64,000 nt of DNA from Patescibacteria group bacterium (GTDB lineage: Bacteria > Patescibacteriota > Minisyncoccia > Minisyncoccales > UBA5738). The stretch's first letter is position 1. Each line of letters starts with the position of its first letter. This document shows, piece by piece, positions 41,303-62,175 of this stretch. The stretch is taken from contig JAKLGH010000001.1 in the NCBI GenBank assembly GCA_022710775.1, forward strand, positions 69,824 to 133,823, written 5' to 3'. Both the position numbers and the translations under genes were made by a program. The notes under the pieces were generated by a model. The model did no database searches, had not been told where the DNA came from, and saw nothing but the letters and a program-made list of their open reading frames with translations.

Positions 41303-42250
41303 CTACTCGCCCTTCAGCCGCCCTTGAATGTCGGTCTTGATTTCCTGAGGCGTGGAAAATCTTGCGTCAGCGGGCCGGTAAGGATTCATCGGCGCCAGCT
41401 TCGCGTAAAGGGCGTCGAAACCCTCCCAGGCTTTATCCGATTCGCCCGCCGCCAAATAATTGGCGGCCCGTTCCGCGAAATAGCGGCAGCGCGCCGCCGG
41501 CAAATCCGTATCGGGATATGAATTTTTCGAAGTATTGTAATATTTCTCCAGATCCAGTTCGTTTTTTTGAGCCGCCTGGATAAATTCGCTTTTAAAATCC
41601 TGGTTTTTTTCGGTTAATTTTCCATCCGCCAGCTGGAAATACCGGTAGATCATGGGAGAATCCTGAAAGGAGCCGCAAAAATACATCAAACGGTCATCGG
41701 CAAGCTTCAAATAAAGATTGCCGTCCTTTTCCACTAGATTTTCTTCGCCTTCCGGATAAACATTTCCCATGTCGGCCATCGAAACAGTTGATAAAACGGG
41801 GTTTAAAATATTCTGGGCATCCAGCGTAAAAGCATACCATCCAAAACAGCAATGCTCTCCGCCGGTATAATCGGCGGAAACAATATACCGCGATCCCCGG
41901 TAATCAAACGCGAAAGAATAGTTATCAACGGTTTCCGACGCCGCGGCCCGCGCCTCATCAACGGCGCTTAAACCAAGCTCACGGTAAACGGGCGATACGG
42001 ATAACAGCTTGGCAACCAGCAATTTCTTGATGTCGTCGTTTAAACCGGCCATGGAATATGTCTTTTCTCCGGTTTTGGGCGGCGTCTTCACCACCGGCGC
42101 CTCTTTTCTGGGAACTTCCACTGAAGGCAAAGGCTGGTCGAGTTTTTTTTCCGCGCTAAAAAATTGCCAGTATAATCCCAGCCCCGCAGCTCCCAAAATT
42201 ACGATTAAATAAAAGCCGGCATGGCTTTTGTTTTTTGCCTTTCTGCCCAT
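41303..42250 (-). CDS. hypothetical protein, N-terminal TM anchor, extracytoplasmic
   Basis: 315-aa ORF with a TM segment (FYLIVILGAAGLGLYWQFF) followed by a Pro/Lys linker. No recognised motifs. Confidence 0.5.
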   Translation of the reverse strand: MGRKAKNKSHAGFYLIVILGAAGLGLYWQFFSAEKKLDQPLPSVEVPRKEAPVVKTPPKTGEKTYSMAGLNDDIKKLLVAKLLSVSPVYRELGLSAVDEARAAASETVDNYSFAFDYRGSRYIVSADYTGGEHCCFGWYAFTLDAQNILNPVLSTVSMADMGNVYPEGEENLVEKDGNLYLKLADDRLMYFCGSFQDSPMIYRYFQLADGKLTEKNQDFKSEFIQAAQKNELDLEKYYNTSKNSYPDTDLPAARCRYFAERAANYLAAGESDKAWEGFDALYAKLAPMNPYRPADARFSTPQEIKTDIQGRLKGE

Positions 42251-42334
42251 GATTTTTTGTTTATGTTTTCATTATAGTGTTTTTTATTAATTTGTTAACT
42301 GCCTCCGATGCGCCGCAAACGATAAAAAAAGAAG

Positions 42335-42673
42335 CTAGGTTTTACCCGCTCCCTTTAACGCCATTTTTTTTGCATCCTCCCTAAACAGAAAGATACAAAC
42401 GGCTAGCGCCGTAAGAATACCGCCGGATGCCGCCGCCACCTGCAAATCTTGGTACCAATACAATAAGTATCCAAGCAACGCGGCTATCGCGCCCGAAACT
42501 ATCAAATCCTTGAAAGTATCAAGATCATTGACCGTACTTTTCCGGTCGATCTGCCGCAATCCAACCCAGATAAGGCCTATAGAAAAAGCCACGCAGGTCA
42601 GAACCGCGGCTTCAAGGTTTTGGTTTAAATGTAATACCCAGTAATACAGGATAAATCCCACGGTAGCGCTCAC
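42335..42673 (-). CDS. small hypothetical membrane protein (3-4 TM helices)
   Basis: 112-aa hydrophobic ORF with a GTG start in the track. The start is uncertain. Confidence 0.4.
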   Translation of the reverse strand: MSATVGFILYYWVLHLNQNLEAAVLTCVAFSIGLIWVGLRQIDRKSTVNDLDTFKDLIVSGAIAALLGYLLYWYQDLQVAAASGGILTALAVCIFLFREDAKKMALKGAGKT

Positions 42674-42821
42674 GATGACATCCTTACCGATATCGATATT
42701 TTGAAGACCCTTCGTATCTATTCCCCCTTTGATAGGTTAACATTATTATATATAATATTATTCTTTTTGTCAAAAAATAGGGTTAAAAAGTTCTCATTAT
42801 TTAAAAATCCGGCTTCTTTGG

Positions 42822-44687
42822 TCACTGGTTGCGATCCTTAATCACCTGTTTTCCCGCCTCCATCAGCAATTCCAAAAAGGCTGCGCTGGTCCACGCCTGG
42901 GCCGGAGAACCAGCCGAGTCGAAATGGCTCGCCGGGCTAAGCTCCGCGGCGTATCCGGATATTCCGGTCCATAAAAGGTCGTAGGATCCGGCCTCGAATA
43001 TCTTTTTTATATTATAGTCAAAACGCTTTTGATCCAAACGGCTTAAAACGATCGCGGCCAGGTCATTTAGATAAAACCAGCTGTCTCCGTTGTGATAGCT
43101 AGCCGGATTTTCGCCGGTATGTCCGTCATGGAATTCCGGCAGGGTCTTGTCGATAGTGGCCAGCCCTCCCCAGTCAAGCCAGAGTTTTTGCAAGGCACCT
43201 TTAAAGCATTTAATCCATTCTTCCCTGTCCAGCAGCTTCGGATAGGCGTAAGCGGCCAGGAAAATATTCGGCCTTAAGGTCCAATCGGGCTGTCCGGATT
43301 TCGGATCGAAACCGTCGGCCAGGCGGGTTCCGTCCCAGAAGTTTTTGCGCACCAAGCGCAATAAAGCGGCTTCAAGCCCGGCATACCGCTCTTTGCTCCG
43401 CGGAGAAACGGCCAGATCCTTGGCCAAACGGTACATTGCCAGCCTCATTGCCTGGATCTCGATTAACGCGCCCGCCCGGCTCAAACTATCCATCCAGGTT
43501 TCTTGGGACTGGCTGTAAGCCAAACCTCCAACCGTCCTTTCGGCAATATCGCGGTCGATCGTTTTTCTCAAAGCCTCGATAACCCGCTTTTTTTCCGCGC
43601 TTCCGAGCAGCCCTTCAGAAATCATCCAGCCCGAACGCAGAAAAAACCACCCAGCCTCGTCAGCTGTCTTGGTTTTGTATTCAAAAACCTCCATTTCCAG
43701 AAGGCGCCTTGCGAAAATGCTTTGCGCGGCTTTGGGATTGAATTCGGCTAGCGCTTTAAGGCAAACTCCCTCGTCACGGTTCCAGAACTGGTAAAACCAA
43801 GGCAAGCCCGCGAACATGCCGGAAAATTCCCCGGCCTTAACGACAAAGGAATTCAAAGAAGTAAGCGCGCAAAAAGCGTTGGCGATCAAATCCTTGTTTT
43901 TCAGCTGCTTTTCCTTAATATGCTTATTTCCAATGAAAGAGCGAAATAACTTCTTGCATTCATTAATTTTTGCCAGCTTTAAACGTTCGTAATTTTGATA
44001 AATGAAACGCGCCAATTCTTTAGCTTTGCCCGCATCAAACGATACCGCCATAACGATTTTTGACGCAGTAACATTCAGCGCCCGGAAAACATACCGTTCA
44101 TAGGGAGGGGAATTTCTCGAGTGGTCATACGAGTAATCCCGCCTGACCCAATTAGGGGGCAATCCGTTGTCGCCTCCGTCGAACCTTAAAGCGATGTATA
44201 ATTTTTCGCAAAGCATTCCCGGATGGGAATATTCAATAATCGTGTACCCGTCTTGGCGCGAGATTTTGTAATACCGGTCCCAATCGCTATGGTCGTTGCA
44301 TTCGGCCACGTCGAAATAAAGATCGCAGGTAACTTTGCGGTTCGTTTCATACACCAGGCCGTCATAGCCGGGTGTTAAAAAAAATTTTTCCGACACATCC
44401 CCTCTGACGCGGTCAAAAGAACAAAAATTGTTCCTCAATTCATCAACCGGGCCCGAACCGGCAATCTCAATGCTTTCAAGGACTTTGATCATTTTCTTGC
44501 CGCGGATATCCGGCGGCGAAAAAAACCAACCCTGGTAGCGGCTGGACGGACTGCCGTCAAGCCAGAGGAATCCGCCCGAATTATCAGCCAAAATCAAGCC
44601 AAGCTGTTCCTGGCTTTTTATCTCCTTTTGGACGGTAAATTCTTTTTCAAGGGTGTGGATTATCTTCATCGGAAAATATTCTGACAC
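42822..44687 (-). CDS. glycogen-debranching-enzyme-like amylo-alpha-1,6-glucosidase (GDE_C, six-hairpin glycosidase family)
   Basis: GLPWFYQFWNRDEGVCL, SYHNGDSWFYLNDLAAIVL and SPAQAWTSAAFLELL resemble the conserved motifs of archaeal/bacterial GDE_C proteins. Confidence 0.78.
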   Translation of the reverse strand: MSEYFPMKIIHTLEKEFTVQKEIKSQEQLGLILADNSGGFLWLDGSPSSRYQGWFFSPPDIRGKKMIKVLESIEIAGSGPVDELRNNFCSFDRVRGDVSEKFFLTPGYDGLVYETNRKVTCDLYFDVAECNDHSDWDRYYKISRQDGYTIIEYSHPGMLCEKLYIALRFDGGDNGLPPNWVRRDYSYDHSRNSPPYERYVFRALNVTASKIVMAVSFDAGKAKELARFIYQNYERLKLAKINECKKLFRSFIGNKHIKEKQLKNKDLIANAFCALTSLNSFVVKAGEFSGMFAGLPWFYQFWNRDEGVCLKALAEFNPKAAQSIFARRLLEMEVFEYKTKTADEAGWFFLRSGWMISEGLLGSAEKKRVIEALRKTIDRDIAERTVGGLAYSQSQETWMDSLSRAGALIEIQAMRLAMYRLAKDLAVSPRSKERYAGLEAALLRLVRKNFWDGTRLADGFDPKSGQPDWTLRPNIFLAAYAYPKLLDREEWIKCFKGALQKLWLDWGGLATIDKTLPEFHDGHTGENPASYHNGDSWFYLNDLAAIVLSRLDQKRFDYNIKKIFEAGSYDLLWTGISGYAAELSPASHFDSAGSPAQAWTSAAFLELLMEAGKQVIKDRNQ

Positions 44688-44690
44688 GCT

Positions 44691-46505
44691 TTAGGCGCGG
44701 CTCTTTGAAGCTTTCAAAGCCTTGTTATGCGCTTCAATGTAATTTTGCGCCAGATTGGCCCAGTCGCAATATTCAACCAGTTCGCGAGCCTTGATCTTGT
44801 TCTCGACGCGGTCTTTGCGAGTCAGTGTCGAAAAATCGTACAATACTCCCGACAGCTGCTTTCCCGCTTCAGAGGCATCCTTTCCGAAATTATTGATCAC
44901 AAAAATTCCCGGCTGGTTGTTATCGCGCGGAACATGGCTCATAAAGCGCCCGACTCCGGACATATCGCTTGTTACCGCGGCAACCCCTTCCACCGCCGCT
45001 TCCAACGGAGTATATCCCCAAGGCTCGTAATAAGAGGGAAAAATACCCAGATGGCAACCTTGGATCGCTCCCTGGACGTTTAAATTCAAAATACCGTCGT
45101 GTTCGGTCAGATACACCGGATAGAATACAACCTTGACCCTATCGCTTTTGGCATTCGCCAAACCCGCTTCCTGGAATGCGTTCATAATAGTTTCGTCGTG
45201 GCTGCTTAAACGGTGCGTGCAGATAAGCGGGTTTCCTTCGCGTTTGGTCTTTTTTAATTTTCTTTCCAGGATGTCGTGGGTTTTATCGTCGAATACATCG
45301 GTGTCTTTCAGCGTTTTTCCGGTTAAGATCGAGTTGACAAAGCTTTCGACCATATCCTGGGAATTTTCCTCGACGAATTGTTTAACATCGTTGTACCCGC
45401 TCCGGTTTTCCAAAAGCTCCTCCTCGATTCCGTTTACCCCGGCCGGGATCCAGAAAAACGTTACAATCGTTTTTTTGCTTTTTTCTTCCTTCAGCCTGTT
45501 GTTCATCTCGCCCAGAGATTTGATCAGCAGATCTATCCCTTTGGCATGGAATTCATAGCGCCCGATAATGAAGTAAAAAAGCGTGTTTTTCAAGTCGAAC
45601 GTGTAATAAGGAAAAAAATAGTAAAACAGAAATTCCCGAATCCGGCCGCGCTGGATATGATGCTTGACGGCCACTTCCTCGAAGCTGGTCGATTTGGACA
45701 AATCCAGGCCGTTAGGCAAAAAAACATCCGGCATCCGGTTCAAAAAGCGGTCGCATTCCACGCCGGTAATTTCGGACACCGTTGTGAAGATATCGCAATT
45801 CAAAGCGGCGGCGCGCTCCAGCAGATGCTTGGCGGCTATGCCGTAACGATAAGCTTCTTTCTGCGCATCGATCTGGTCCAGGATAGTGTAAAAATCAACA
45901 TTCGCGAAAGCCATGCTCCTCCCTAAAGACGTGGCATGAGTGGTAAATACCGTCGCCGTTTTAACGCCGAATTTTTTTGCGAACAGAAGCGCCGCCCCGG
46001 CCAGCCATTCGTGGAAATGAGCTACGATCTTCTCTTTTTCATAAGCCTGGCTCAATTTCTCCAAAAGTTTCGCAACCGCGAAACCCCAGACAACCGGTTC
46101 GTCGAACTCGCGAATTGAATTTAGCGAATCGATCTGATATGCGTCCCATAACTGCCATTTGAACTGGTTTATGTCCTTCCAAAGGGCGCTAAAATCAACC
46201 AAAATAACTTTGGGCTCGCCATCGATGATCCAGCGGCCAAAATGGCAATTGATTCCCTCCGCGGCCAATGAATCGAAAATCTCCTGCAACTCGCGCTCCG
46301 GTTTACGCTCTTCAAAAAAATTCTTGGCGCTGCTGTCCAGATACGGGCCAACCAGGTAATAACCGGGGCCGTAATATTTTTGCATCTGAACAGCCTTGGT
46401 CGCCAAAACCGTATTGATTCCGCCTACTTTGTTGCAAACCTCCCATGAGATCTCGAAAGCCAGATCGGCTTCCGCTACGATTGTTTTTTTAGATATTTCT
46501 TCCAT
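44691..46505 (-). CDS. glycogen synthase of the eukaryote-like GT3 type
   Basis: The N-terminus FEISWEVCNKVGGINTVLATKA...YYLVGPY...FGRWIIDGEPKVILVDF parallels the animal/fungal glycogen synthase N-terminus ([39 protein letters not shown]). The C-terminus reads PSYYEPWGYTPLE. Confidence 0.85.
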   Translation of the reverse strand: MEEISKKTIVAEADLAFEISWEVCNKVGGINTVLATKAVQMQKYYGPGYYLVGPYLDSSAKNFFEERKPERELQEIFDSLAAEGINCHFGRWIIDGEPKVILVDFSALWKDINQFKWQLWDAYQIDSLNSIREFDEPVVWGFAVAKLLEKLSQAYEKEKIVAHFHEWLAGAALLFAKKFGVKTATVFTTHATSLGRSMAFANVDFYTILDQIDAQKEAYRYGIAAKHLLERAAALNCDIFTTVSEITGVECDRFLNRMPDVFLPNGLDLSKSTSFEEVAVKHHIQRGRIREFLFYYFFPYYTFDLKNTLFYFIIGRYEFHAKGIDLLIKSLGEMNNRLKEEKSKKTIVTFFWIPAGVNGIEEELLENRSGYNDVKQFVEENSQDMVESFVNSILTGKTLKDTDVFDDKTHDILERKLKKTKREGNPLICTHRLSSHDETIMNAFQEAGLANAKSDRVKVVFYPVYLTEHDGILNLNVQGAIQGCHLGIFPSYYEPWGYTPLEAAVEGVAAVTSDMSGVGRFMSHVPRDNNQPGIFVINNFGKDASEAGKQLSGVLYDFSTLTRKDRVENKIKARELVEYCDWANLAQNYIEAHNKALKASKSRA

Positions 46506-46599
46506 ATCAACCTATATGAAACACACTTGCTTAAAAGCATGCTTGCCTGAATACGCGCATAAAAACACTGCCAAAAATTCCGCTTAATTCTGCGGCGGC

Positions 46600-46947
46600 T
46601 TAAAAGAATGTCCAGAGCTTAGCGCTTTCGGTTTTGCTTTTTATCAGCTTTGCGGCCGCTTTCGCGGTCTTGGCTTTCCGGATCGCCAGCCCCAGCTTCT
46701 TTTCCTGGAAAACATCCTCGATCCAGTTGGCAAAATCGTTCTTATCCTTGGTTACATGGAATTTCCATATGGAATCTTCCATTTTTTCCAAGACGGCACC
46801 CAAGTCGCTTAAACCGGCAATCACCTTGCCGCTATTCAGCCAAAACCGTTTGTCAATGGGCGCTTCGAACGCCGCTTTTTTAGCCGTTGTTGTTTTTTTT
46901 ACCATTTTTTTTCTTAAGCGCGCTTCCCGGTCAACGGTTAGACGCAC
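46600..46947 (-). CDS. hypothetical small protein embedded in the glycogen gene cluster
   Basis: 115-aa ORF between the GH57 and GT3 genes on the same strand. No recognised motifs. Confidence 0.45.
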   Translation of the reverse strand: MRLTVDREARLRKKMVKKTTTAKKAAFEAPIDKRFWLNSGKVIAGLSDLGAVLEKMEDSIWKFHVTKDKNDFANWIEDVFQEKKLGLAIRKAKTAKAAAKLIKSKTESAKLWTFF

Positions 46948-46972
46948 CTTAAGTTCATTGCTTGCGACCTTT

Positions 46973-48292
46973 TTAAATTCCTTTTTTATTCTTATTTTTA
47001 AGCTCCTCTTTTTTTCTCTCGCGCGCTATTTCCTTTGCGATATCCTTTTTGATCGATCTTGCGCCGATCTCGATCCGCTCTTTTTCTCCTATCGCGCCGG
47101 CTATCCTCATTTCCAGATCTCCGATAATGTTCATAAACGCAATGTATGATTCGTAGGGGCTTTCATAAGGATTGAAATATTTATGGACGTCGCCGTCGGA
47201 AAACCATTTGGTGCACATATAATAGAAATGATCCGAAGTTTGCAGCTTCCGCCAGTCATCCAGCAGATCCCGATCGCCGATTCCCTTAATTGCCCCCTCC
47301 AGCGCGTAAACCCTTTGGAGCGCCGATTGCTGCATTTGGTTGCCAAGCCACGCGCTCAAATCGCGCTCGGTATCGGCCCAGGACAGCGGATAGGGCACAT
47401 CGACGCAATCGACCGGTTCATATAATTGTATCAATTCCGACACAGTTTTAAAACTGTTCTGCGGATGTTCCAATGCGCGCCACACGAACGCCTCGAAAAA
47501 ATCGAATATCCCGGTTTCTTCCCATTGATGCTCCCCGAAAGTTTCGTAATCCATAAACAAATTGACCGTCTGGGCCGCGTCCCCGATATTGGTTTGGTTG
47601 ACCCAATCGGCATACTTTTCCGAAGTAAGCGGCCATTCTTTCCACCCTCGGTTGGAAAAACGGAACGCGATATCGTCGCTCAAACGGTAGTTTCTCATCA
47701 GCAGGGCGATATTGGTATCCTTGGCGCGATAAACAAAATTCGCGCTCCGCCAGCCCAGCACCTTATCCCATCCTTCAGCCAGAATACCGGTAAAACCCAT
47801 TTCCTCCACGGTCTTGGCAACCGCGTTGGTATACATCAGCTCCGTGTTGCGGAAAACCGCAGGCGTAAAGGAAAACAGCTGCTCAAACTTTTTTTTCTGC
47901 TGATCCACCTGGCTCACGAATTCATCCTTGGAATAAAGCGCGGCCAGCGAATGGTAATAAGTTTCGGAAACTAGCTCGCAGCAACCGGTCTCAACCAGGT
48001 CTTGGAAGCTTTTCAACACTTCGGGAAATCTGCTTTCCAGCTGCTCTAAAAGAACGCCGGTAATGCTCATGCTCACCTTAAACTTCCCAAGCGACTTCCT
48101 GATCAGCTCTAAAAGCATCCGGTTCGTCGGCAAGTAGCTTTTTTTGGCGATCCGATCCAGGATCGCGCCGTTCATCGCTTCATCAAAATAAGGATTGCTC
48201 GACCCGATATCGAAAACCGAGTATTTTTTCATCCTCTGCGGCTGATGGCAATGGAGATATAAGGAAATGGCTGGCATGTAATTTGTTTGCAA
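46973..48292 (-). CDS. GH57-family alpha-glucan-active enzyme (alpha-amylase / glucanotransferase type)
   Basis: ISLYLHCHQPQR (GH57 region 1), NLFMDYETFGEHQW (the catalytic Glu region), and WADTERDLSAW. Confidence 0.85.
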   Translation of the reverse strand: MQTNYMPAISLYLHCHQPQRMKKYSVFDIGSSNPYFDEAMNGAILDRIAKKSYLPTNRMLLELIRKSLGKFKVSMSITGVLLEQLESRFPEVLKSFQDLVETGCCELVSETYYHSLAALYSKDEFVSQVDQQKKKFEQLFSFTPAVFRNTELMYTNAVAKTVEEMGFTGILAEGWDKVLGWRSANFVYRAKDTNIALLMRNYRLSDDIAFRFSNRGWKEWPLTSEKYADWVNQTNIGDAAQTVNLFMDYETFGEHQWEETGIFDFFEAFVWRALEHPQNSFKTVSELIQLYEPVDCVDVPYPLSWADTERDLSAWLGNQMQQSALQRVYALEGAIKGIGDRDLLDDWRKLQTSDHFYYMCTKWFSDGDVHKYFNPYESPYESYIAFMNIIGDLEMRIAGAIGEKERIEIGARSIKKDIAKEIARERKKEELKNKNKKGI

Positions 48293-48366
48293 TTTTCAAT
48301 CGCTGATTCTCTGCTTCCAAGCATTAATTGAAAATTAGAAATTGAAAATTGAAAATTTTTTATCGT

Positions 48367-49605
48367 TTAAGCTTGCAATACTTGGTCGTAGACCGACAGG
48401 CATTTTTTCGCCGATTCCTGCCAGGAAAAATTCCGGACTTCTCCAAAACCGTTCTCGCTAAGACACCGGCCAAGCGCCGGGTATTTCACGACCGCCAGCA
48501 TTTTCGCGGCCATTTGGTCAACATCCCAGAAATCCACTTTCAGGCAATGGCTGATCATTTCGGAAGCCCCGCATGTCCTGGAAACTAAAATAGGCGTGCC
48601 GCTGGCCATTGCCTCAAGGCTTGTTAGGCCGAAAGGTTCCGATACCGACGACATCACGTAAAGATCGGCCATTTTATAAAGCCTGGCCAGATTAGCGCCG
48701 CGCAAAAAACCCGCGAAGATCACGCGATCCGAGATCCCCAAACGCCCCGATTCCTCGATCAGCCAGCGCTCCATATCTCCAGAACCGGAAAAGACAAAAT
48801 ATACATCCGGATCTTTTCTCAAAACCATTTGCGCCGCGCGTAAAAAATAATCCGGTCCTTTTTGATACGTGAGGCGGCCCACGAAAAGCACCATCTTTTT
48901 TCCGTTCTTCTTGAAATTCAGATCCAAAAATTCCGTCCGGTAATCGTTTGGCTCAACGGCATTGGGAACAACGCTCACCTTTGCCGGATCCACTCCGTAG
49001 CGGCTACAGATCACGCGTTTCGTGTAATCGCTTACCGCAATAATGGCATCAGCCTTCTTAAAGCCCTCTTTTTCAATCACGTAAATATCGGGGTTCAGCG
49101 AACCTTCGCCCACGCGGTCGTACTCGGTGGCATGAACGTGGAAAACCAAAGGCTTTCCCGAAACTTCCCTGGCCGCCAGTCCGGCCGGAAAACTCAACCA
49201 ATCATGGCAGTGGATCACGTCAAAATCGGCAGTTTTCGCGATTCGCTTGGCATTGCGCGCGTACCGAAAAACTTCGCTCACCAGATCGCGAGCGTAAATG
49301 TCGCGCTTTTTTTGGGCGGCCAGCCTTCGGTAGGTTTCGTTATAAGTACGGGAATTCAGGTAAGGAGCAAGAATTGAATCCACCTTTTTCATGGTTATCA
49401 TTCCCGATTCTTCCTCGCCAAACTCGAAACGGCAGGCCGTTGAAGCCAAAGCTACCGGTTTTGGCAATACAAAAGTTATCCGCGCGCCGTTGGATGCCAA
49501 ACCGCGCACCAGACCTTCGCAGGCAACGCCCAAACCGCCGGAATTGAAGGGAGGAAATTCCCATCCGAACATTAAGATTTTAACGGGTACGCTTTTGTGC
49601 ATCAA
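48367..49605 (-). CDS. GT-B glycosyltransferase, GlgA-like (GT4/GT5)
   Basis: KILMFGWEFPPFNSGGLGVACEGL (compare KTGGL of GlgA), HCHDWLSFPAG, and the EX7E-type region SVSEPFGLTSLEAMASGTP. Confidence 0.8.
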   Translation of the reverse strand: MMHKSVPVKILMFGWEFPPFNSGGLGVACEGLVRGLASNGARITFVLPKPVALASTACRFEFGEEESGMITMKKVDSILAPYLNSRTYNETYRRLAAQKKRDIYARDLVSEVFRYARNAKRIAKTADFDVIHCHDWLSFPAGLAAREVSGKPLVFHVHATEYDRVGEGSLNPDIYVIEKEGFKKADAIIAVSDYTKRVICSRYGVDPAKVSVVPNAVEPNDYRTEFLDLNFKKNGKKMVLFVGRLTYQKGPDYFLRAAQMVLRKDPDVYFVFSGSGDMERWLIEESGRLGISDRVIFAGFLRGANLARLYKMADLYVMSSVSEPFGLTSLEAMASGTPILVSRTCGASEMISHCLKVDFWDVDQMAAKMLAVVKYPALGRCLSENGFGEVRNFSWQESAKKCLSVYDQVLQA

Positions 49606-49852
49606 TGGATCTAAATATGTTTCATCGGCGCGAATATCGGCCTAAAACCGCGCCGGATGGATTCATCCTTTTTTTTGCTGGGCGATTGAAAAATCATAAA
49701 ATGCCAAATTTCATATGGCTTTATTGTTCCTCCTTTCTCATCGCCCCGTTTTTTTATTCTGAGTTTATTATACAGGATAAAATAAAAAAAATGAAAAGCG
49801 GAAAAGCATTGATTTTATTGGCGTTCTTTTCGGGCTGCCAGCGATCGCCGCC

Positions 49853-52468
49853 TCACTCGATAACCTTCACCAAGCCTCGATTGCCGTCAACCAATATTCT
49901 CTGGCCGTCTTTGATTTTTCCGGTCGCGGCGGCAATATTGGATACTACAGGCAAACCGTATTCCCGCGCCACGATCGAAGCATGGGAAAGCAAGCCTCCG
50001 GTATTGGAAACCACGCCTTTAACGACTACAAAAACCGGCGTCCAACCCGGATCAAGGTGGTCGCAAACCAGAATTTCTCCGGGACGAACCTTCCAAATAT
50101 CGTCAATTTTTTCTACTACCCGGGCAACGCCTTGCGCCATACCGGAACTCACGCCCAATCCCTGCAACGCCTCAACTTTTTTGCTGCCCGGCGATAAATC
50201 TGCGACAGGCAGAAGATTAGGCTTGCCTTTAAAAACGTCGGGCATAGTAAAGGCCGCTGACCGTTTGTATTCGCTTTTCCGGCGCTTCACCAAAGCCGCC
50301 AGTTTAGGATCAGCCTCAAGAGCTTTGCGGCGCACGGCGTCAATTTCGTCGCGTGTCAGAAAAAAAACGTCCGAGGCTTCCCTTAAAGCGCCTATTTCCT
50401 TGAATGCCAAACCAATTTTTAAGTAAACCGATCTTAGCGGGAAAAGCAAACCAATCAGAACCGATTTGAATTGTTCGCGCAAAATTTGGGCGGATTCCGC
50501 CGATCGTAAAATTTTATTAAAAATGGCGAATTTCCAATTTGGAAGCAGCCTCTTGGTTTCCCAAAGAAGCATTTCTTTCCGCTTGGCCAGTTTCTCGATC
50601 CTTGAAGTCGGGTCAGCGTCCTCGGATGCTCCCAAATAAAGCTTAAGGGTGTTGATCAAAAAACTCGGATTTTCCTTCCAGCGCGGCCGTGAAAAATCAG
50701 CCTCATTGGCGCATCGGTGTCCGTACTTCTCAAGATACAGCATCCATGCGGCGCTTATCTCCCGGGACTCAACCAAAACAGCGAGCGCCTTTGATATCGT
50801 GGCGGCTTTAAGAAACCGGTGGGACAAGCTGCGGTTGTTTTTAATAGCGCGGCTCAAGTCCCAAAGCGCCTCAAATGACACCAGCATTTCAATTTGCCGG
50901 GAACCCGATGCCATAAACGCATTAGCTTTTTCACCGGTCTTATCGTTAAGCCATTTTTGGCATAAATAGGTAAAAATATAAAAATAGGCAAGCGGATAAA
51001 GCAAAGTACTGGCGCCAGCCATGACCGATCCAGCGTATGAGGAGATTTCCGATTCCAAAACCAGCAAATCAGGCAAATCGCGAGAAGCCGAAACTCGGCG
51101 ATCGAATTCTTTAGCCATTTTATCGGCACCGCCTATCCGGGCTTTAAATTTATGGGACGCCGCAAGCGAATGAAAAAAAACTTTGGCGCAATAGGACATC
51201 AATCCCAGTTTTCCGGAAAAGGAAATTTCCAGCCGTCCGCCGCCGCCGCGCCCGCCAAAGAAATTTTCAATGGGAAATTTCTTCAGTTTAGTCACCTTCG
51301 CGAGCGACCCGGCAACGGCTGTCGCATTAAAATACAGCCGGCCTTCAAAATCCCGGAGCAGCCTCTCGTTCCTTTCAACCGGCAAAACGGATAACAAGGC
51401 CGGCTCAATAATATAAATCATGTTGCCAGAAACCAGAGGCAGAACGATTCCGGGCAGAATTTCCGAAATGTTCGCGTTTGACCAAACGCATTCTTTATTC
51501 GAAAAGCAGCCGCCCGCCGCTATAGGACGGCACCGGAGAATAGCAATCCTGCCGGAGGCAAAACTCCATTCCACATCCTGGGGAGAGCCAAGTATCCCGT
51601 CGATTTTTATTACAGCTTGAGCCAGCCATTTTATCTGGTCATCGGTCAGTATTTGCGTTATGCGGCCGGCAGAAGAACGGCGCAAAGCAAAAGAATTTCC
51701 CTGATAACCAGTCATTCGGCACCGGCCAGCCGCTTTTTTTGCAATGATATAAAGCGGATCGATATTTAAGTCGTAGCATTCCGGCAGTGCTTTTCTTGGC
51801 GGCGTCGGCCCGCCAAACCTTTGGCGCGCCTCAATAACCAGACGCTCCTTTCCCGCTCGATCGGCGAGCCTCGAAAAAGCCGTACCGAAAATTTCGCTGT
51901 TGATCATTCTTTGTACCAGCACCGCCGGCCGGATTTTTTCCGGATCAACGCTTAATTTGAGAAAATAAACGAGCGCGGGCGCTGAAAAAGCGGATGCCCA
52001 GCAATCTTTTATCCGCTCATTCAGATCCGGATGAGCAACTGTTAAAAAACTTCCGGCAGGAACGGCAGCCGAAGCCGCTGAAAAACCGCCTTCGATAGCG
52101 ACCGATGACCTCACAGCGGCATAACTGGTATTCAACATATCGAAAGCGCCGTCGATTTGATGCACAATTTCTTTTTGGATCGGATGTTTAATGATCAAAT
52201 CGAAAATTGCGGAGCTTCTCCTGGAAAGATCCGGCAAATTCTTGATATCGCATCCTTTAAGCAATTCGTTTAAAGGCCCATCGATCTTGGCATCTTTGCA
52301 GAACCGATCGAACGCGGCCGCCATTACCACAAAACCGGAAGGAGTAAAAATTCCTTTTTTAACCACTCTGGCTAGCGAAACTGCTTTAAATCCCGCTTGC
52401 GATAAGTCATTTTCGGTAAGCCTATCCAGCTTTTTAACGTAAATCATTGGTATTAGCCGGTTCCTCAT
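49853..52468 (-). CDS. PEP-utilising-enzyme-family dikinase lacking a PEP/pyruvate barrel (ATP-grasp N-domain, long central domain, C-terminal phosphohistidine swivel)
   Basis: The N-terminal PPDK_N-like region runs from AGFKAVSLARVVKKGIFTPSGFVV to SPQDVEWSFASGRIAILRCRPI. The C-terminal mobile His domain reads ILVCDHLDPGWTPVFVVVKGVVSNTGGLLSHASIVAREYGLPVV. Size and domain order resemble rifampicin-phosphotransferase-like proteins. The substrate is unknown. Confidence 0.8.
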   Translation of the reverse strand: MRNRLIPMIYVKKLDRLTENDLSQAGFKAVSLARVVKKGIFTPSGFVVMAAAFDRFCKDAKIDGPLNELLKGCDIKNLPDLSRRSSAIFDLIIKHPIQKEIVHQIDGAFDMLNTSYAAVRSSVAIEGGFSAASAAVPAGSFLTVAHPDLNERIKDCWASAFSAPALVYFLKLSVDPEKIRPAVLVQRMINSEIFGTAFSRLADRAGKERLVIEARQRFGGPTPPRKALPECYDLNIDPLYIIAKKAAGRCRMTGYQGNSFALRRSSAGRITQILTDDQIKWLAQAVIKIDGILGSPQDVEWSFASGRIAILRCRPIAAGGCFSNKECVWSNANISEILPGIVLPLVSGNMIYIIEPALLSVLPVERNERLLRDFEGRLYFNATAVAGSLAKVTKLKKFPIENFFGGRGGGGRLEISFSGKLGLMSYCAKVFFHSLAASHKFKARIGGADKMAKEFDRRVSASRDLPDLLVLESEISSYAGSVMAGASTLLYPLAYFYIFTYLCQKWLNDKTGEKANAFMASGSRQIEMLVSFEALWDLSRAIKNNRSLSHRFLKAATISKALAVLVESREISAAWMLYLEKYGHRCANEADFSRPRWKENPSFLINTLKLYLGASEDADPTSRIEKLAKRKEMLLWETKRLLPNWKFAIFNKILRSAESAQILREQFKSVLIGLLFPLRSVYLKIGLAFKEIGALREASDVFFLTRDEIDAVRRKALEADPKLAALVKRRKSEYKRSAAFTMPDVFKGKPNLLPVADLSPGSKKVEALQGLGVSSGMAQGVARVVEKIDDIWKVRPGEILVCDHLDPGWTPVFVVVKGVVSNTGGLLSHASIVAREYGLPVVSNIAAATGKIKDGQRILVDGNRGLVKVIE

Positions 52469-53048
52469 CCGGATGGTTAGTCTGCGGTCTTTCTGCCCAT
52501 TCGCACCCGCGCTTGGCGGTTTTAGCCCCGCTTTCGGCCGACTTCACTTCATCGCGGTATTTATGGTTATCGTCAAACAAATAAGCTTCGGCTAAACCTT
52601 CGCTTAACAAGACCAGGCTTATATTTTGCGATTCCGCAAAAACATATCTTAAGCTTCGGCCATACCGGTCCGTATCGCTTCCGGAGGCCTCCAGCCTTAC
52701 GGGCTTGCCCAAGACCAAATCTTTTAGCCGGGTTTTAGCCGCGCCGTAGCAGCGCCCGCCTTTTTCATCGGTATCGATACCCAGCAGCCTTACGGTTTTT
52801 GGCCCGGCTACTTCAATGGTGTCGCCGTCGATGACCCGGGTAACTATTGCCTCATCAGGGCCAGGCGCGCCGATCGGCTTTTTATCGAACCATTTATGGA
52901 TCAACACAGGCGCTTCAACAATATTTGCGGCATAATATAACGCTGCGGATAACGCCAAAGCAGAAACCAATAAAAAAAGGAAAAGAAATATTTTCCAATA
53001 GCTTTTCGGGGTCATATGTCGAATAGGTTCAAACTTTTTGATAAGCAA
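52434..53048 (-). CDS. membrane-anchored/secreted staphylococcal-nuclease-like (thermonuclease, SNase) protein
   Basis: N-terminal TM segment, then VTRVIDGDTIEVAG..VRLLGIDTDEKG...DRYGRSLRYVF, which are SNase fold motifs. Confidence 0.8.
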   Translation of the reverse strand: MLIKKFEPIRHMTPKSYWKIFLFLFLLVSALALSAALYYAANIVEAPVLIHKWFDKKPIGAPGPDEAIVTRVIDGDTIEVAGPKTVRLLGIDTDEKGGRCYGAAKTRLKDLVLGKPVRLEASGSDTDRYGRSLRYVFAESQNISLVLLSEGLAEAYLFDDNHKYRDEVKSAESGAKTAKRGCEWAERPQTNHPDEEPANTNDLR

Positions 53049-53130
53049 AAAATTATTAATCCATTATACAACAATCGTCCTTATGCAAAAAGCGGGAAAA
53101 ACGGGCCGGACGGACAGACGGACATAACTA

Positions 53131-53159
53131 TTGACATTTATATTAATATATATTATAAT
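53131..53159 (+). promoter_or_regulatory. perfect-consensus promoter TTGACA-N17-TATAAT positioned for a leaderless mRNA
   Basis: TTGACA at 53131..53136, 17-nt spacer, TATAAT at 53154..53159. The ATG of the downstream ORF is at 53166, which is 7 nt after the -10 hexamer. Confidence 0.6.
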
Positions 53160-53165
53160 ATAAGC

Positions 53166-53468: not shown

Positions 53469-53536
53469 GGCGAGAAAAAAGAAAAAACGGTTAAACAAAG
53501 ATAGTGATAATCAAAGGTTTAAAACCAATCTAAAAA

Positions 53537-62171: not shown

Positions 62172-62175
62172 ATAA

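What the first reader, a model, noticed from the sequence alone, without database searches (positions are those of the whole stretch)
42822..49605. Glycogen island built from eukaryote/archaeon-flavoured parts: GT3 synthase, GH57, GDE_C and a second GlgA-like GT
Five co-oriented genes form the island: a GlgA-like GT4/5 (48367..49605), a GH57 enzyme (46973..48292), a 115-aa unknown (46600..46947), a GT3-type glycogen synthase (44691..46505) and a GDE_C-type debranching enzyme (42822..44687). The GT3 N-terminus FEISWEVCNKVGGINTVLATKA..YYLVGPY..FGRWIIDGEP is strikingly close to animal and fungal glycogen synthase. The classical bacterial set (glgC ADP-glucose pyrophosphorylase, GT5 glgA, GH13 glgB/glgX, glgP) is not seen in this window. 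Two different synthase-like GTs sit in one operon. This raises the possibility of a primer/elongator division of labour that would be glycogenin-like in function. The conserved small ORF in the middle is unexplained.
Basis: partly seen in the sequence, partly recalled or inferred. Interest (0 to 1): 0.55.

Follow-up and report, generated by a model that had tools for sequence, protein, structure and literature searches.

The report
DPANN-type glycogen gene cassette in CPR bacterium
Five adjacent genes in an ultra-small (CPR/Paceibacterota) bacterium encode a glycogen-making and glycogen-trimming kit built around an animal/fungal-type (GT3) glycogen synthase; the same kit is found in ultra-small DPANN archaea, so it is a real, shared but already partly described system, not a new kind of pathway.

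Summary
Five co-oriented minus-strand genes sit at exactly the stated coordinates: a GT4/GlgA-like transferase, a GH57, a small ORF, a GT3 synthase and a GDE_C (GH133) enzyme. The GT3 call is solid: Pfam Glycogen_syn scores 534 bits, and the protein is 36% identical to human GYS1 over 585 residues.

The window comes from a Candidatus Paceibacterota (CPR) genome. The same cassette, GT4-GH57-small ORF-GT3-(GalT-like)-GDE_C, recurs in other CPR bacteria and in many DPANN archaea. GT3 genes of PVC bacteria and Bacteroidota stand alone. In a rough tree, CPR GT3s nest inside DPANN GT3s and are no closer to eukaryotes than other prokaryotic GT3s.

- **Small ORF:** it is a single-repeat member of the DUF5752/OrfY family.
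- **GH57:** it carries the alpha-amylase fingerprint, not the branching-enzyme one.
- **GT4:** its best solved relatives are GlgM and archaeal GlgA.
- **GT3:** it keeps the glucose-6-phosphate-binding positions but lacks the eukaryotic phospho-regulatory tails.

No glgC, glgB, glgP or glycogenin is in the window. The rest of the genome could not be searched.

The primer/elongator idea remains possible but untested. GT3 synthases and GT4-GH57-GH133 clusters in archaea are already in the literature, so this is a new member of a known kind.

The parts
48367..49605 (-). GT4-family retaining GT-B glucosyltransferase (412 aa, 'GlgA-like'); candidate alpha-1,4-glucan or primer synthase
   Evidence: - **Pfam:** Glycos_transf_1 120 bits, Glyco_transf_4 95 bits, Glyco_transf_5 67 bits.
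- **NCBIfam:** the best matches are glgA_Coryne/GlgM type at 131.5 bits (cut-off 302) and GT5 glgA at 94.6 bits (cut-off 328). It is therefore not an equivalog of either.
- **Solved structures:** a profile of 21 orthologues scores best on M. smegmatis GlgM (127.7 bits) and on P. abyssi GT5 glycogen synthase (111 bits, full-length alignment 1-399).
- **Sequence motifs (read directly):** GGLG near the N-terminus, GRLTYQKG, and an E-X7-E motif (EPFGLTSLE).
- **Context:** it lies within 500 bp of the GH57 gene in 21 of 21 related loci that hold both.
46973..48292 (-). GH57 enzyme of the 'alpha-amylase' subgroup (439 aa); candidate branching or 4-alpha-glucanotransferase/amylase activity
   Evidence: - **Pfam:** PF03065 at 248 bits.
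- **Conserved sequence regions:** all five are present. They are HQPQR, GCCELV, RNTELM (nucleophile E151), FMDYETFGEH (proton donor D248, Thr at position 23) and LQTSDHFYY (Tyr-Tyr at positions 35-36).
- **Fingerprint:** this matches the alpha-amylase fingerprint of Martinovicova & Janecek 2018 (PMC6037648).
- **Conservation:** E151 and D248 are invariant in 20 orthologues.
- **Solved structures:** the only relative by sequence or profile is T. litoralis 4-alpha-glucanotransferase, at 23.8 and 29.2 bits. No GH57 branching enzyme is matched.
46600..46947 (-). Small DUF5752/OrfY-family protein (115-aa ORF; the likely true start is the ATG at 46905, giving 101 aa); candidate regulator or adaptor
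   Evidence: - **Single-sequence Pfam:** PF19027 at only 17 bits, below the cut-off of 23.
- **Profile search:** a profile of orthologues retrieves proteins pre-annotated PF19027 at E of about 1e-25.
- **Solved structure by sequence:** the profile hits PDB 4CSO (OrfY of Thermoproteus tenax, labelled 'transcription factor') at E=5.7e-4, with the NDFxxW motif matched in both OrfY repeats.
- **Fold search:** Foldseek's top hit for the AF2 model is also 4CSO, at probability 0.84. This is weak: E=0.57, and the model has mean pLDDT 69 with the core at 72-84.
- **Conservation:** the gene is present between or next to GH57 and GT3 in 19 of 41 related loci.
- **Invariant residues:** F35, G40, L49, H64, V65, N70, D71, F72 and W75.
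44691..46505 (-). GT3-family glycogen synthase (604 aa), eukaryote-type catalytic core without the N- and C-terminal phospho-regulatory tails
   Evidence: - **Pfam:** PF05693 at 534 bits over residues 18-599.
- **Human GYS1:** 432 bits, residues 14-598 against 27-614, 36% identity.
- **Catalytic residues:** E-X7-E (E494, E502), R316 and K322 are invariant.
- **Glc6P site:** the positions equivalent to human Glc6P-binding R582 and R586 are R566 and K570. The R582 position is Arg in 53 of 59 prokaryotic GT3s. The R586 position is Lys or Arg in all 59.
- **Phospho-sensing positions:** the equivalents of human R588 and R591 are not conserved.
- **Identical copy:** a 100% identical protein is annotated 'glycogen/starch synthase [Candidatus Paceibacterota bacterium]'.
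42822..44687 (-). GH133/GDE_C-type amylo-alpha-1,6-glucosidase-like enzyme (621 aa); its start lies 3 nt after the GT3 stop
   Evidence: - **Pfam:** PF06202 at 66.7 bits (cut-off 21), on residues 392-605.
- **Solved structures:** a profile of 20 orthologues hits the glucosidase (GC) domain of Candida glabrata GDE (5D06/5D0F, residues 1037-1432) at E=2.5e-8.
- **Active-site residues:** the invariant motif W-x-R-D305 aligns with CgGDE D1078. The invariant motif T-W-M-D400 aligns with the catalytic D1241. Both residues were shown essential in PMC4837477.
- **Missing domain:** there is no GH13-like 4-alpha-glucanotransferase domain, unlike the 1,500-aa eukaryotic enzyme.

Best explanation
**What it is.** The five genes form a cytoplasmic alpha-glucan (glycogen) synthesis and turnover cassette of the kind typical of DPANN archaea. 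Here it sits in a CPR (Candidatus Paceibacterota) bacterium. It was very probably exchanged between the two groups of ultra-small symbionts long ago, because it shows no compositional anomaly now.

**Shown here.**
- Family identities and intact catalytic residues of GT3, GH57 and GH133.
- Conservation of the gene set across CPR and DPANN.
- A two-module architecture. GT4-GH57-DUF5752 forms one unit and GT3-(GalT-like)-GDE_C forms the other. In Woesearchaeota the two are transcribed divergently.

**Inferred mechanism.**
1. Hexose phosphates come from the glycolytic and gluconeogenic genes in the same window (PEP synthase, FBP aldolase/phosphatase, GAPDH, enolase).
2. An enzyme not encoded in the window converts them to NDP-glucose. 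In relatives, a GalT-like HIT enzyme or an NTP_transferase sits right after GT3.
3. The GT3 enzyme does bulk alpha-1,4 elongation, probably from UDP-glucose. It is probably activated by glucose-6-phosphate through the conserved R566/K570 pocket, without eukaryote-style phosphorylation control.
4. The GT4 enzyme is a second NDP-glucose-dependent alpha-1,4-glucosyltransferase. It either starts chains de novo or uses a different donor.
5. The amylase-type GH57 rearranges chains, acting as a branching and/or 4-alpha-glucanotransferase.
6. GH133 removes single alpha-1,6-glucose stubs during mobilisation. Together, GH57 and GH133 would then be a split analogue of the eukaryotic indirect debranching enzyme.
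7. The OrfY-like protein is a regulator or adaptor of the GT4-GH57 module.

**My estimates.**
- Glycogen/alpha-glucan cassette of DPANN type: about 0.8.
- GT3 as the main elongating synthase: about 0.6.
- GH57 supplying branching or transfer and not merely hydrolysis: about 0.4.
- GT4 as a dedicated initiator: about 0.25.
For: - **Family assignments and catalytic residues:**
- **Organism:** the 100%-identical GT3 protein comes from a Ca. Paceibacterota MAG. The next hits are Ca. Nealsonbacteria at 84% and 62%.
- **Cassette conservation:**
  - Nealsonbacteria DGGOD1a has the identical gene order GT4-GH57-small-GT3-GDE_C, with different flanks.
  - Woesearchaeota has GT4-GH57-2xDUF5752 divergent from GT3-GDE_C, plus GH15.
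  - Across 41 non-redundant CPR/DPANN loci, GH57 is present in 26, GT4 in 22, the small ORF in 19 and GDE in 19. GT4 and GH57 are adjacent in 21 of 21 loci that hold both.
  - Across 41 more distant loci (37 PVC, Bacteroidota and other bacterial loci, plus 4 archaeal), only those 4 archaeal loci have a GH57. None has a close GT4 or a GDE.
- **Neighbour enrichment in relatives:** a GalT-like HIT gene appears in 13 loci, directly 3' of GT3 in 11 (a twelfth, L034, has only a partial match). NTP_transferase appears in 6 loci, GH15 in 8 and PGM in 2.
- **Tree:** CPR GT3s form one cluster nested among DPANN GT3s.
- **Glc6P-site conservation:**, read against the roles of human R582 and R586 (PMC9287172).
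- **Literature:**
  - Glycogen storage is called a hallmark of DPANN (PMC7443923).
  - GT3 GlgA is reported in DPANN, and GT4-GH133-GH57 clusters in archaea.
  - Amylase-type GH57 is retained in every archaeon that lacks a classical branching enzyme.
  - The Sulfolobus GH57-amylase knockout loses glycogen, and its GH133 knockout over-accumulates it (PMC11046441).
- **Gluconeogenic genes in the window:**
Against: - **No biochemistry.** No member of this GT3, GT4 or GH57 clade has been characterised, and the review says so for archaeal GT3.
- **No NDP-glucose-forming enzyme, phosphoglucomutase, recognised branching enzyme or phosphorylase is in the window.** The pathway as encoded here is incomplete, and the rest of the genome could not be searched.
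- **The only characterised GH57 of this subgroup (M. jannaschii) was described as a hydrolase.**
- **In Ca. Nanohalobium the homologous hydrolases were found extracellularly and acted on exogenous starch and glycogen.** A scavenging role is therefore possible.
- **The tree is neighbour-joining without support values.**
- **Eight CPR/DPANN loci show GT3 without the other genes nearby.**
Confidence: 0.78

Rival explanations
1. Primer/elongator division of labour. The GT4 enzyme initiates glucan chains de novo and replaces glycogenin functionally. The GT3 enzyme cannot self-prime and only elongates those primers.
For: - Eukaryotic GT3 synthases need a primer, and the lack of glycogenin in archaea is an acknowledged open question (PMC11046441).
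- No GT8 is found in the window or among the enriched neighbour families.
- GT4 and GT3 are co-located in 22 of 41 CPR/DPANN loci.
- The best solved relatives of the GT4 profile are GlgM, which makes maltose-1-phosphate from glucose-1-phosphate (a de novo alpha-1,4 bond), and self-priming archaeal GT5 GlgA.
Against: - GT3 has no close GT4 neighbour in any of the 41 more distant loci (37 PVC, Bacteroidota and other bacterial loci, plus 4 archaeal ones that carry only a much weaker GT4 match). In 8 CPR/DPANN loci none of the four partner genes lies nearby.
- GT4-GH57-GH133 occurs without GT3 or GT5 in Picrophilus, and GT4 sits with glgB and GH57 in Methanoculleus. There the GT4 is suspected to be the sole synthase.
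- GT4 is locked to GH57 in 21 of 21 loci, not to GT3.
- In Woesearchaeota GT4 lies in a separate, divergently transcribed unit.
- Nothing here tests priming.
Confidence: 0.25
2. Mainly a scavenging and catabolic kit. GH57 amylase and the GH133 debranching enzyme digest alpha-glucans taken from a host or the environment. The transferases play a minor or unrelated role.
For: - CPR bacteria are episymbionts with reduced metabolism (general knowledge).
- In the DPANN Ca. Nanohalobium constans, the homologous GDE, alpha-amylase and GH15 were found in the secretome. They allowed growth of the consortium on starch and glycogen (PMC7443923).
- The only characterised enzyme of this GH57 subgroup is hydrolytic (PMC6037648).
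Against: - Read directly from the sequence, neither the GH57 N-terminus (MQTNYMPAISLYLHCHQP) nor the GDE N-terminus (MSEYFPMKIIHTLEK) looks like a signal peptide. No predictor was run.
- Two intact synthase genes are embedded in the same transcription direction. The GT3-to-GDE spacing is 3 nt.
- NDP-sugar-forming genes (GalT-like, NTP_transferase) are the most enriched neighbours in relatives.
- The Sulfolobus GH57-amylase knockout lowers glycogen, which is an anabolic phenotype.
- This rival is not mutually exclusive with storage.
Confidence: 0.15
3. The GT4 plus OrfY-like pair makes something other than glycogen. One option is maltose-1-phosphate for a GlgE-type pathway. Another is a compatible-solute disaccharide, as in the T. 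tenax trehalose operon where OrfY was first seen.
For: - The top solved relative of the GT4 profile is GlgM (127.7 bits), and the top NCBIfam model is the GlgM-type glgA_Coryne.
- The small protein belongs to the OrfY family. From my own recollection of Kouril et al. 2008, which was not retrievable in the library, OrfY lies between treS/P and treT in T. tenax.
Against: - No GlgE or other GH13 is found in the window or among enriched neighbours.
- The score is far below the GlgM equivalog cut-off (131 against 302 bits).
- No solved trehalose synthase (TreT) appears among the 60 listed of the 62 PDB matches with E of 1e-10 or better.
- The invariable partner of GT4 is an alpha-glucan-active GH57.
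- The DUF5752 domain is promiscuous. It has 4,920 cluster representatives and is fused to KaiC-like and HerA-like ATPases. Its presence therefore does not imply trehalose.
Confidence: 0.08
4. A recently acquired island of eukaryotic origin, that is, direct eukaryote-to-bacterium transfer of GT3 and GDE.
For: The GT3 and GDE_C families are best known from animals and fungi. Human GYS1 is the top solved match, and Candida GDE is the only solved relative of the GDE_C protein.
Against: - GC content of the cassette equals that of the flanks.
- Identity to human GYS1 (36%) is lower than identity to DPANN GT3s (43-51%) and CPR GT3s (45-90%).
- Human GYS1 falls with PVC and Bacteroidota, away from the CPR/DPANN clade.
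- The GDE_C protein lacks the eukaryotic N-terminal transferase domain.
- The cassette partners GH57, GT4 and DUF5752 are prokaryotic families.
Confidence: 0.02

Closest known systems
DPANN archaeal glycogen gene clusters (Woesearchaeota, Nanoarchaeota, Altiarchaeales, Nanohaloarchaeota), as reviewed in Chem Rev 2024 (PMC11046441) and La Cono et al. 2020 (PMC7443923)
   Same: - The gene families are the same: GT3 synthase, GT4, amylase-type GH57, GH133/GDE_C and small DUF5752 proteins.
- The GT4-GH57 adjacency is the same.
- Identity to the window proteins is 43-51% for GT3, about 55% for GH57, about 48% for GT4 and about 33-36% for GDE.
   Different: - The host is a bacterium (CPR), not an archaeon.
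- All five genes form one co-directional string. There is a single DUF5752 copy, which lacks the AT-hook and the membrane anchor.
- The window lacks the GalT-like, NTP_transferase and GH15 neighbours that are common in DPANN loci.
Eukaryotic glycogen system: GYS1/Gsy2p (GT3) + glycogenin (GT8) + bifunctional GDE (GH13 + GH133)
   Same: - The GT3 catalytic core aligns end to end, with the E-X7-E, Arg and Lys catalytic residues and the Glc6P-binding positions conserved.
- The GDE_C protein shares the active-site Asp residues of the yeast GDE glucosidase domain.
   Different: - There are no N- or C-terminal phosphorylation tails, and the phospho-sensing Arg positions are not conserved.
- No glycogenin is present.
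- The debranching enzyme is only the about 620-aa glucosidase-type protein, without the transferase domain.
- Branching would have to come from a GH57, not from a GH13.
Thermoplasmatales-type GT4-GH133-GH57 cluster (Picrophilus torridus) and the GT4/glgB/GH57 cluster of Methanoculleus (PMC11046441)
   Same: A GT4 of unclear role is clustered with an amylase-type GH57 and a GH133 debranching enzyme.
   Different: Those genomes lack GT3, whereas the window adds a GT3 synthase. Orthology of the GT4s was not tested here.
Classical bacterial GlgC-GlgA(GT5)-GlgB(GH13)-GlgX(GH13)-GlgP(GT35) pathway
   Same: The presumed end product (branched alpha-1,4/1,6-glucan) and the overall logic of synthase plus chain-modifying enzymes are the same.
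   Different: None of the five classical families is present in the cassette or in the window. The GT4 scores 94.6 bits against the 328-bit cut-off of the GT5 glgA model.
OrfY of Thermoproteus tenax (PDB 4CSO; Pfam DUF5752)
   Same: The small ORF shares the repeat unit with the H-x(5-6)-NDF-x-x-W motif. Like OrfY, it sits next to GT4-type alpha-glucosyltransferase genes.
   Different: - It has one repeat instead of two.
- Sequence similarity is marginal for the single protein (17 bits against a cut-off of 23).
- The function of OrfY itself is unknown. 'Transcription factor' is only the depositors' label.

Membership tests
CAZy GT3 / Pfam PF05693 glycogen synthase | Full-length match to the Glycogen_syn model above its curated cut-off, and end-to-end alignment with solved GT3 enzymes | tested here: met
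   It scores 534 bits against a cut-off of 27, over residues 18-599 of 604. It scores 432 bits against human GYS1, residues 14-598 against 27-614.
CAZy GT3 / Pfam PF05693 glycogen synthase | Catalytic E-X7-E motif and the Arg/Lys pair of retaining GT-B glucan synthases | tested here: met
   E494, E502, R316 and K322 are invariant in 14 and in 60 aligned GT3s, and they align with human E510, E518, R331 and K337.
CAZy GT3 / Pfam PF05693 glycogen synthase | UDP-glucose donor specificity and primer dependence | not testable with these tools
   This needs enzyme assays. The review states that archaeal GT3s are uncharacterised.
Eukaryotic regulated glycogen synthase (GYS/Gsy2p type) | Glc6P allosteric pocket (human R582 and R586) | tested here: met
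   The equivalents are R566 and K570. The R582 position is Arg in 53 of 59 prokaryotic GT3s. The R586 position is Lys or Arg in all 59. The residue roles come from PMC9287172. Binding itself was not tested.
Eukaryotic regulated glycogen synthase (GYS/Gsy2p type) | N- and C-terminal phosphorylation tails and phospho-sensing Arg588/Arg591 | tested here: not met
   The protein ends 6 residues after the position aligned to human 614, and only 13 residues precede the core. The R588 and R591 equivalents are K572 and E575, and they vary in CPR and DPANN.
Glycogenin (GT8) priming system | A GT8 self-glucosylating protein encoded with or near the synthase | tested here: not met
   No Glyco_transf_8 hit appears among the window ORFs or among the 25 listed (most widely matched) Pfam families of 150 neighbour ORFs from 41 loci. 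The rest of the genome was not searched.
GH57, alpha-amylase subgroup (Janecek classification) | Five conserved sequence regions with the Glu nucleophile and Asp proton donor; fingerprint Arg/Glu at position 12, Thr at 23, Tyr-Tyr at 35-36; length about 414 aa | tested here: met
   The motifs are RNTELM, FMDYETFGEH and LQTSDHFYY. E151 and D248 are invariant. Lengths are 439 aa here and 380-420 aa in relatives. Position 1 is His instead of the usual Glu/Gln, which is a minor deviation.
GH57 glycogen branching enzyme (GBE) | GBE fingerprint (aromatic at position 12, Leu at 23, Phe at 35), length about 520-550 aa, sequence similarity to solved GBEs | tested here: not met
   The residues are Arg, Thr and Tyr-Tyr instead, and the length is 439 aa. 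Neither the single sequence nor the profile matches any solved GH57 GBE or AmyC. Only T. litoralis 4-alpha-glucanotransferase is matched. This lowers 'is a GBE', not 'could branch'.
GH133 / GDE_C amylo-alpha-1,6-glucosidase | Match to GDE_C above cut-off, and conservation of the glucosidase-domain acidic residues (CgGDE D1078, D1241, E1492) | tested here: met
   It scores 66.7 bits against a cut-off of 21. The profile hits CgGDE residues 1037-1432 at E=2.5e-8, with D305 aligned to D1078 and D400 aligned to D1241. The E1492 equivalent lies outside the aligned stretch. Invariant E582 is a candidate for it but is unverified.
Eukaryotic bifunctional glycogen debranching enzyme | N-terminal GH13-type 4-alpha-glucanotransferase domain fused to the glucosidase domain | tested here: not met
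   The protein is 621 aa, and residues 1-390 have no Pfam or PDB match.
Bacterial GT5 glycogen synthase GlgA | Score above the TIGR02095 / NF001899 cut-offs | tested here: not met
   The GT4 protein scores 94.6 bits against 328 and 60.9 against 459. The GT3 protein scores 28 bits.
GlgM maltose-1-phosphate synthase (GT4) | Score above the TIGR02149 cut-off, and co-occurrence with GlgE | tested here: not met
   It scores 131.5 bits against a cut-off of 302.4. No GH13/GlgE is in the window or among enriched neighbours. GlgM is nevertheless the best solved relative of the family profile.
DUF5752 / OrfY family | Match to PF19027 or to the OrfY structure | tested here: inconclusive
   - The single sequence scores 17 bits, below the cut-off of 23.
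- The orthologue profile retrieves PF19027-annotated proteins at E of about 1e-25.
- The profile hits 4CSO at E=5.7e-4.
- The Foldseek top hit is 4CSO, but at E=0.57.

I accept membership at the profile level.

The most novel reading that the evidence does not exclude
In CPR bacteria and DPANN archaea, glycogen may be made by a glycogenin-free two-synthase machine.
- The GT4 enzyme would start chains.
- Its obligate partner, the amylase-type GH57, would be the long-sought 'missing' branching enzyme of organisms that lack GH13 and GH57-GBE branching enzymes.
- The OrfY-like protein would organise or regulate this pair.
- A GT3 synthase already equipped with a glucose-6-phosphate allosteric switch would do bulk elongation.

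This would mean that the Glc6P control of animal and fungal glycogen synthase predates eukaryotes. It would also mean that GH57 plus GH133 form a split ancestor-like version of the eukaryotic indirect debranching enzyme.
Probability: 0.15. Interest if true: 0.7.

Novelty: new member of a known kind. Interest (0 to 1): 0.42.

Why it matters
Three questions are explicitly open in the 2024 Chem Rev review of prokaryotic alpha-glucan metabolism:

1. How do prokaryotic GT3 glycogen synthases prime without glycogenin?
2. What does the GT4 next to GH57 do?
3. What branches glycogen in organisms that have only an amylase-type GH57?

This cassette puts all the candidate players (GT4, GH57, an OrfY-like protein, GT3 and GH133) in one compact bacterial operon of about 6.8 kb. 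That makes it a convenient construct for heterologous reconstitution.

It also extends the 'DPANN hallmark' glycogen module to CPR bacteria. This is another example of gene sharing between the two radiations of ultra-small symbionts.

It further suggests that the glucose-6-phosphate pocket of GT3 synthases is ancestral, while phosphorylation control is a eukaryotic addition.

If the enzymes turn out to be ordinary, the finding is simply a correct annotation of a storage-carbohydrate operon.

Tried and rejected
1. **Insertion-sequence copies.** Four ORFs of exactly 367 aa suggested IS copies. This is rejected. They are unrelated proteins (release factor, FBP aldolase/phosphatase, an unknown, and MnmA) with 6-8% mutual identity and no DNA repeat.
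2. **Glucan-water-dikinase analogue.** The 871-aa PPDK_N + PEP-utilizers protein directly upstream (49853-52468) was considered as a dikinase belonging to the cassette. This is rejected as a cassette member. No homologue lies next to the cassette in any of 85 related loci, and its domain order is Rph/PEP-synthase-like.
3. **Promoter and terminator scan of 42000-53500.** It gave only weak, near-background matches inside the cassette. One perfect sigma-70-like site lies just downstream of the GDE stop and belongs to the next gene. It was not used as evidence.
4. **Single-sequence searches.** The GDE_C protein gave nothing against PDB. The small ORF was sub-threshold against Pfam. Both needed orthologue profiles.
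6. **Small ORF as a glycogenin-like acceptor protein.** This is considered unlikely. The invariant residues are F, G, L, H, V, N, D, F and W, with no conserved Tyr, Ser or Thr.
7. **Literature searches.** Searches for DUF5752, for OrfY, and for CPR or Nealsonbacteria glycogen clusters found no specific description. CPR papers mention glycogen genes only in passing.
8. **Whole-genome survey.** Looking for glgC, glgB and glgP elsewhere in this MAG was not possible with the tools.

Full report
**1. Observation**

| Coordinates | Length | Assignment |
|---|---|---|
| 48367-49605 | 412 aa | GT4/GlgA-like transferase |
| 46973-48292 | 439 aa | GH57 |
| 46600-46947 | 115 aa | small ORF |
| 44691-46505 | 604 aa | GT3 synthase |
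| 42822-44687 | 621 aa | GDE_C |

- The gaps between genes are 74, 25, 94 and 3 nt.
- Pfam assigns the 604-aa protein to Glycogen_syn (PF05693) at 534 bits over its whole length.
- The 439-aa protein matches Glyco_hydro_57 at 248 bits.
- The C-terminal third of the 621-aa protein matches GDE_C at 66.7 bits.
- The 412-aa protein matches GT4-type domains, plus a weaker Glyco_transf_5 hit.
- NCBIfam places the 412-aa protein far below the cut-offs of both GT5 GlgA and GlgM-type 'glgA_Coryne'.
- GC content across the cassette (0.47-0.48) equals that of the flanks. It is not a compositional island.

**2. Where the window comes from and what else is in it**

- The GT3 protein is 100% identical to a protein from a Candidatus Paceibacterota MAG.
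- The next relatives are Ca. Nealsonbacteria at 84% and 62% identity. A large set of Woesearchaeota and other DPANN proteins follows at about 50%.
- The rest of the window encodes the lifestyle of a fermentative CPR bacterium:
  - PEP synthase, archaeal-type FBP aldolase/phosphatase, GAPDH, enolase, phosphoglycerate mutase and acetyl-CoA synthetase.
  - An FeFe hydrogenase, FtsZ, NifS/NifU and an RND efflux system.
  - A type V-A CRISPR-Cas12a locus at the far end.
- No NTP_transferase, GH13, GT35, GT8 or GH15 was found among ORFs of 150 aa or more.
- tblastn with GalT-like, NTP_transferase and GH15 proteins from related loci found nothing either.
- The statement 'classical set not seen in this window' is therefore correct. 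Whether those genes lie elsewhere in the genome could not be tested.

**3. The cassette is a conserved unit shared by CPR and DPANN**

- The closed genome of Ca. Nealsonbacteria DGGOD1a has the same order, GT4-GH57-small ORF-GT3-GDE_C, between unrelated flanking genes.
- A Woesearchaeota contig has GT4-GH57 followed by two small DUF5752 genes on one strand. GT3-GDE_C runs divergently, and a GH15 gene follows.
- A scan of one genome per species with a GT3 profile returned 80 loci. I searched them, plus the five loci fetched earlier, with the window proteins.
- Among 41 non-redundant CPR/DPANN loci, many of them truncated:
  - GH57 is present in 26, GT4 in 22, the small ORF in 19 and GDE_C in 19.
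  - GT4 and GH57 lie within 500 bp of each other in all 21 loci that hold both.
  - Eight loci show GT3 with none of the others nearby.
- Among 41 more distant loci (37 PVC, Bacteroidota and other bacterial loci, plus 4 archaeal):
  - GT3 has none of these partners. The exceptions are four archaeal loci (three nanohaloarchaeal, one unclassified), which have a GH57 and a much weaker GT4 match.
- The upstream dikinase-like gene and the SNase gene of the window have no counterpart in any locus.
- A neighbour-joining tree of 60 GT3 sequences puts the window in a CPR cluster nested among DPANN sequences. Human GYS1 falls on the other side with PVC and Bacteroidota. The tree has no support values and is only indicative.
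- Identity to human GYS1 is 36%. That equals the identity to PVC and Bacteroidota GT3s. The eukaryotic resemblance is a property of the family, not of this lineage.

**4. Extended neighbourhood in relatives**

- I pooled 150 neighbour ORFs from the 41 loci and scanned them against Pfam.
- The most frequent families were the GalT/HIT group (GalP_UDP_transf, DUF4921, DUF4931_N), NTP_transferase, GH15 and phosphoglucomutase.
- tblastn finds the GalT-like gene in 13 loci. The about 310-325-aa gene sits immediately 3' of GT3 in 11 of them (a twelfth, L034, has only a partial match), and eight were confirmed individually by Pfam.
- Relatives therefore encode a sugar-nucleotide step next to GT3. This strengthens the glycogen reading and hints at how NDP-glucose is supplied.
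- The window's cassette lacks this gene.

**5. The individual parts**

*GT3*
- E-X7-E (E494, E502), R316 and K322 are invariant.
- The positions equal to human Glc6P-binding R582 and R586 are R566 and K570. The R582 position is Arg in 53 of 59 prokaryotic GT3s. The R586 position is Lys or Arg in all 59.
- The phospho-sensing positions R588 and R591 vary, and the N- and C-terminal tails are absent.
- Inference: the enzyme is probably Glc6P-responsive and is not controlled by phosphorylation.

*GH57*
- All five conserved regions are present, with nucleophile E151 and proton donor D248.
- The diagnostic positions (Arg12, Thr23, Tyr35-Tyr36) match the 'alpha-amylase' fingerprint and not the branching-enzyme one.
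- Its only solved relative is a 4-alpha-glucanotransferase.
- The 2024 review notes that this amylase-type GH57 is retained in every archaeon that lacks a classical branching enzyme. It also notes that its knockout in Sulfolobus lowers glycogen, and it asks whether this enzyme is the missing brancher.

*GT4*
- A profile of 21 orthologues scores best on GlgM and on the GT5 glycogen synthase of P. abyssi. The second alignment covers the full length.
- Both are NDP-glucose alpha-1,4-glucosyltransferases.

*GDE_C*
- The orthologue profile hits the glucosidase domain of Candida GDE.
- Invariant D305 and D400 align with D1078 and with the catalytic D1241.
- The eukaryotic transferase domain is absent.

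*Small ORF*
- Its orthologues share a core of about 70 residues, F-x-L-x-x-G...L-x-E-L...H-H-V-x-x-x-K-N-D-F-A-x-W-I.
- The profile retrieves DUF5752-annotated proteins and OrfY of T. tenax (PDB 4CSO). Foldseek also ranks OrfY first, but only weakly.
- The family is large, with 4,920 cluster representatives.
- The domain occurs as tandem repeats and is fused to KaiC-like and HerA-like ATPases.
- In DPANN paralogs it follows AT-hook-like RGRPPK tails or precedes a C-terminal membrane helix.
- This fits a regulatory or adaptor domain better than an enzyme or a glucosyl acceptor.

**6. How it most likely works**

- **Shown:** a conserved two-module cassette with intact active sites, made of GT4-GH57-OrfY-like and GT3-(GalT-like)-GDE_C.
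- **Inferred:**
  1. NDP-glucose is made elsewhere in the genome.
  2. GT3 polymerises it in bulk, under Glc6P control.
  3. GT4 also polymerises it, acting either as an initiator or with a different donor.
  4. GH57 transfers or branches chains.
  5. GH133 removes alpha-1,6 glucose stubs during mobilisation.
  6. The OrfY-like protein modulates the GT4-GH57 unit.
I give it about 0.25, for three reasons. GT3 often stands alone. GT4-GH57(-GH133) exists without GT3 in Thermoplasmatales. GT4 is linked to GH57, not to GT3.
- A scavenging role for the hydrolases, as shown for Ca. Nanohalobium, is a non-exclusive rival.

**7. Comparison with what is known, and novelty**

- Already in the literature:
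  - Glycogen storage as a DPANN hallmark.
  - GT3 synthases in DPANN.
  - GT4-GH133-GH57 clusters in archaea.
  - The open questions about priming and branching.
- CPR papers mention glycogen genes only in passing.
- I found no description of the five-gene cassette, or of its OrfY-like member, in CPR.
- The finding is therefore a new bacterial member of a known, DPANN-type, kind of glycogen cluster.
- Its value is practical. It is a compact operon that holds every candidate for the unresolved steps.

Noticed in passing
window 59880-64000: Type V-A CRISPR-Cas locus.
- The array at 59880-60721 has a period of about 61 and about 13 repeats, containing ATCTACAAAAGTAGAAATT. From memory, I read this as the reverse complement of a Cas12a-type repeat stem.
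- Cas1 is at 61197-62171 and Cas4 at 62176-62715.
- The C-terminal part of a Cas12a (RuvC_1 224 bits plus a NUC domain) is at 62715-63986 and runs off the window.
- GC drops to 0.35-0.38 here.
   Followed up: partly
window 49853-52468 (-): An 871-aa protein has an N-terminal PPDK_N ATP-grasp domain and a C-terminal PEP-utilizers swivel domain, but no PEP-binding domain. This is the architecture of rifampicin phosphotransferase and the PRK06241 family.

It lies directly upstream of the GT4 gene, and its substrate is unknown. It is not conserved next to the cassette in any related locus.
   Followed up: partly
window 8077-11646 (-): An archaeal-type bifunctional FBP aldolase/phosphatase (FBPase_3, 523 bits; 8077-9180) lies adjacent to a bona fide three-domain PEP synthase (9268-11646). 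This is a gluconeogenic pair that could feed hexose phosphate to the glycogen cassette.
   Followed up: no
related loci. Directly 3' of GT3: L016:4117-5085, L018:5317-6261, L021:11531-12484, L024:1651-2580, L026:11793-12737, L028:5302-6234, L029:5293-6231, L035:11768-12712, L037:12370-13305, L038:2117-3091, L039:2955-3896. Partial match: L034. Not adjacent: L065: A GalT-like HIT-superfamily gene (GalP_UDP_transf/DUF4921, about 310-325 aa) sits immediately after GT3 in many DPANN loci and some CPR loci. It may be the NDP-glucose-forming or NDP-glucose phosphorylase step of this pathway. The gene is absent from the window.
   Followed up: partly
L003:6154-6780, L017, L019, L021, L023, L026, L036, L040 (genes next to GH57); proteins P0254, P0265, P0270, P0271, P0279, P0309: - DPANN loci carry 2-3 tandem DUF5752 paralogs. 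Some have AT-hook-like KRKRGRPPKKK N-termini, and some are long with a C-terminal transmembrane helix.
- Elsewhere the domain is fused to KaiC-like ATPases and to giant HerA/DUF87 + CarboxypepD_reg proteins.
- The Pfam DUF5752 model itself spans two copies of the repeat.
   Followed up: partly
L007, L020, L021, L022, L028: Contigs titled 'uncultured Methanosarcinales archaeon' carry Woesearchaeota-like cassettes and group with Woesearchaeota in the GT3 tree. The taxonomic label probably reflects binning and not the true origin.
   Followed up: no
window 20122-23796 (-): A 1,224-aa protein has two AAA_2/ClpB_D2-small modules in its C-terminal two-thirds and about 580 N-terminal residues with no Pfam match. 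This is an unusual ClpB-like architecture.
   Followed up: no
window 4205-5308, 8077-9180, 15309-16412, 33511-34614: Four ORFs of exactly 367 aa looked like repeated elements. They are unrelated proteins (release factor, FBP aldolase/phosphatase, an unknown Cys-rich protein, and MnmA), so the equal length is a coincidence.
   Followed up: yes
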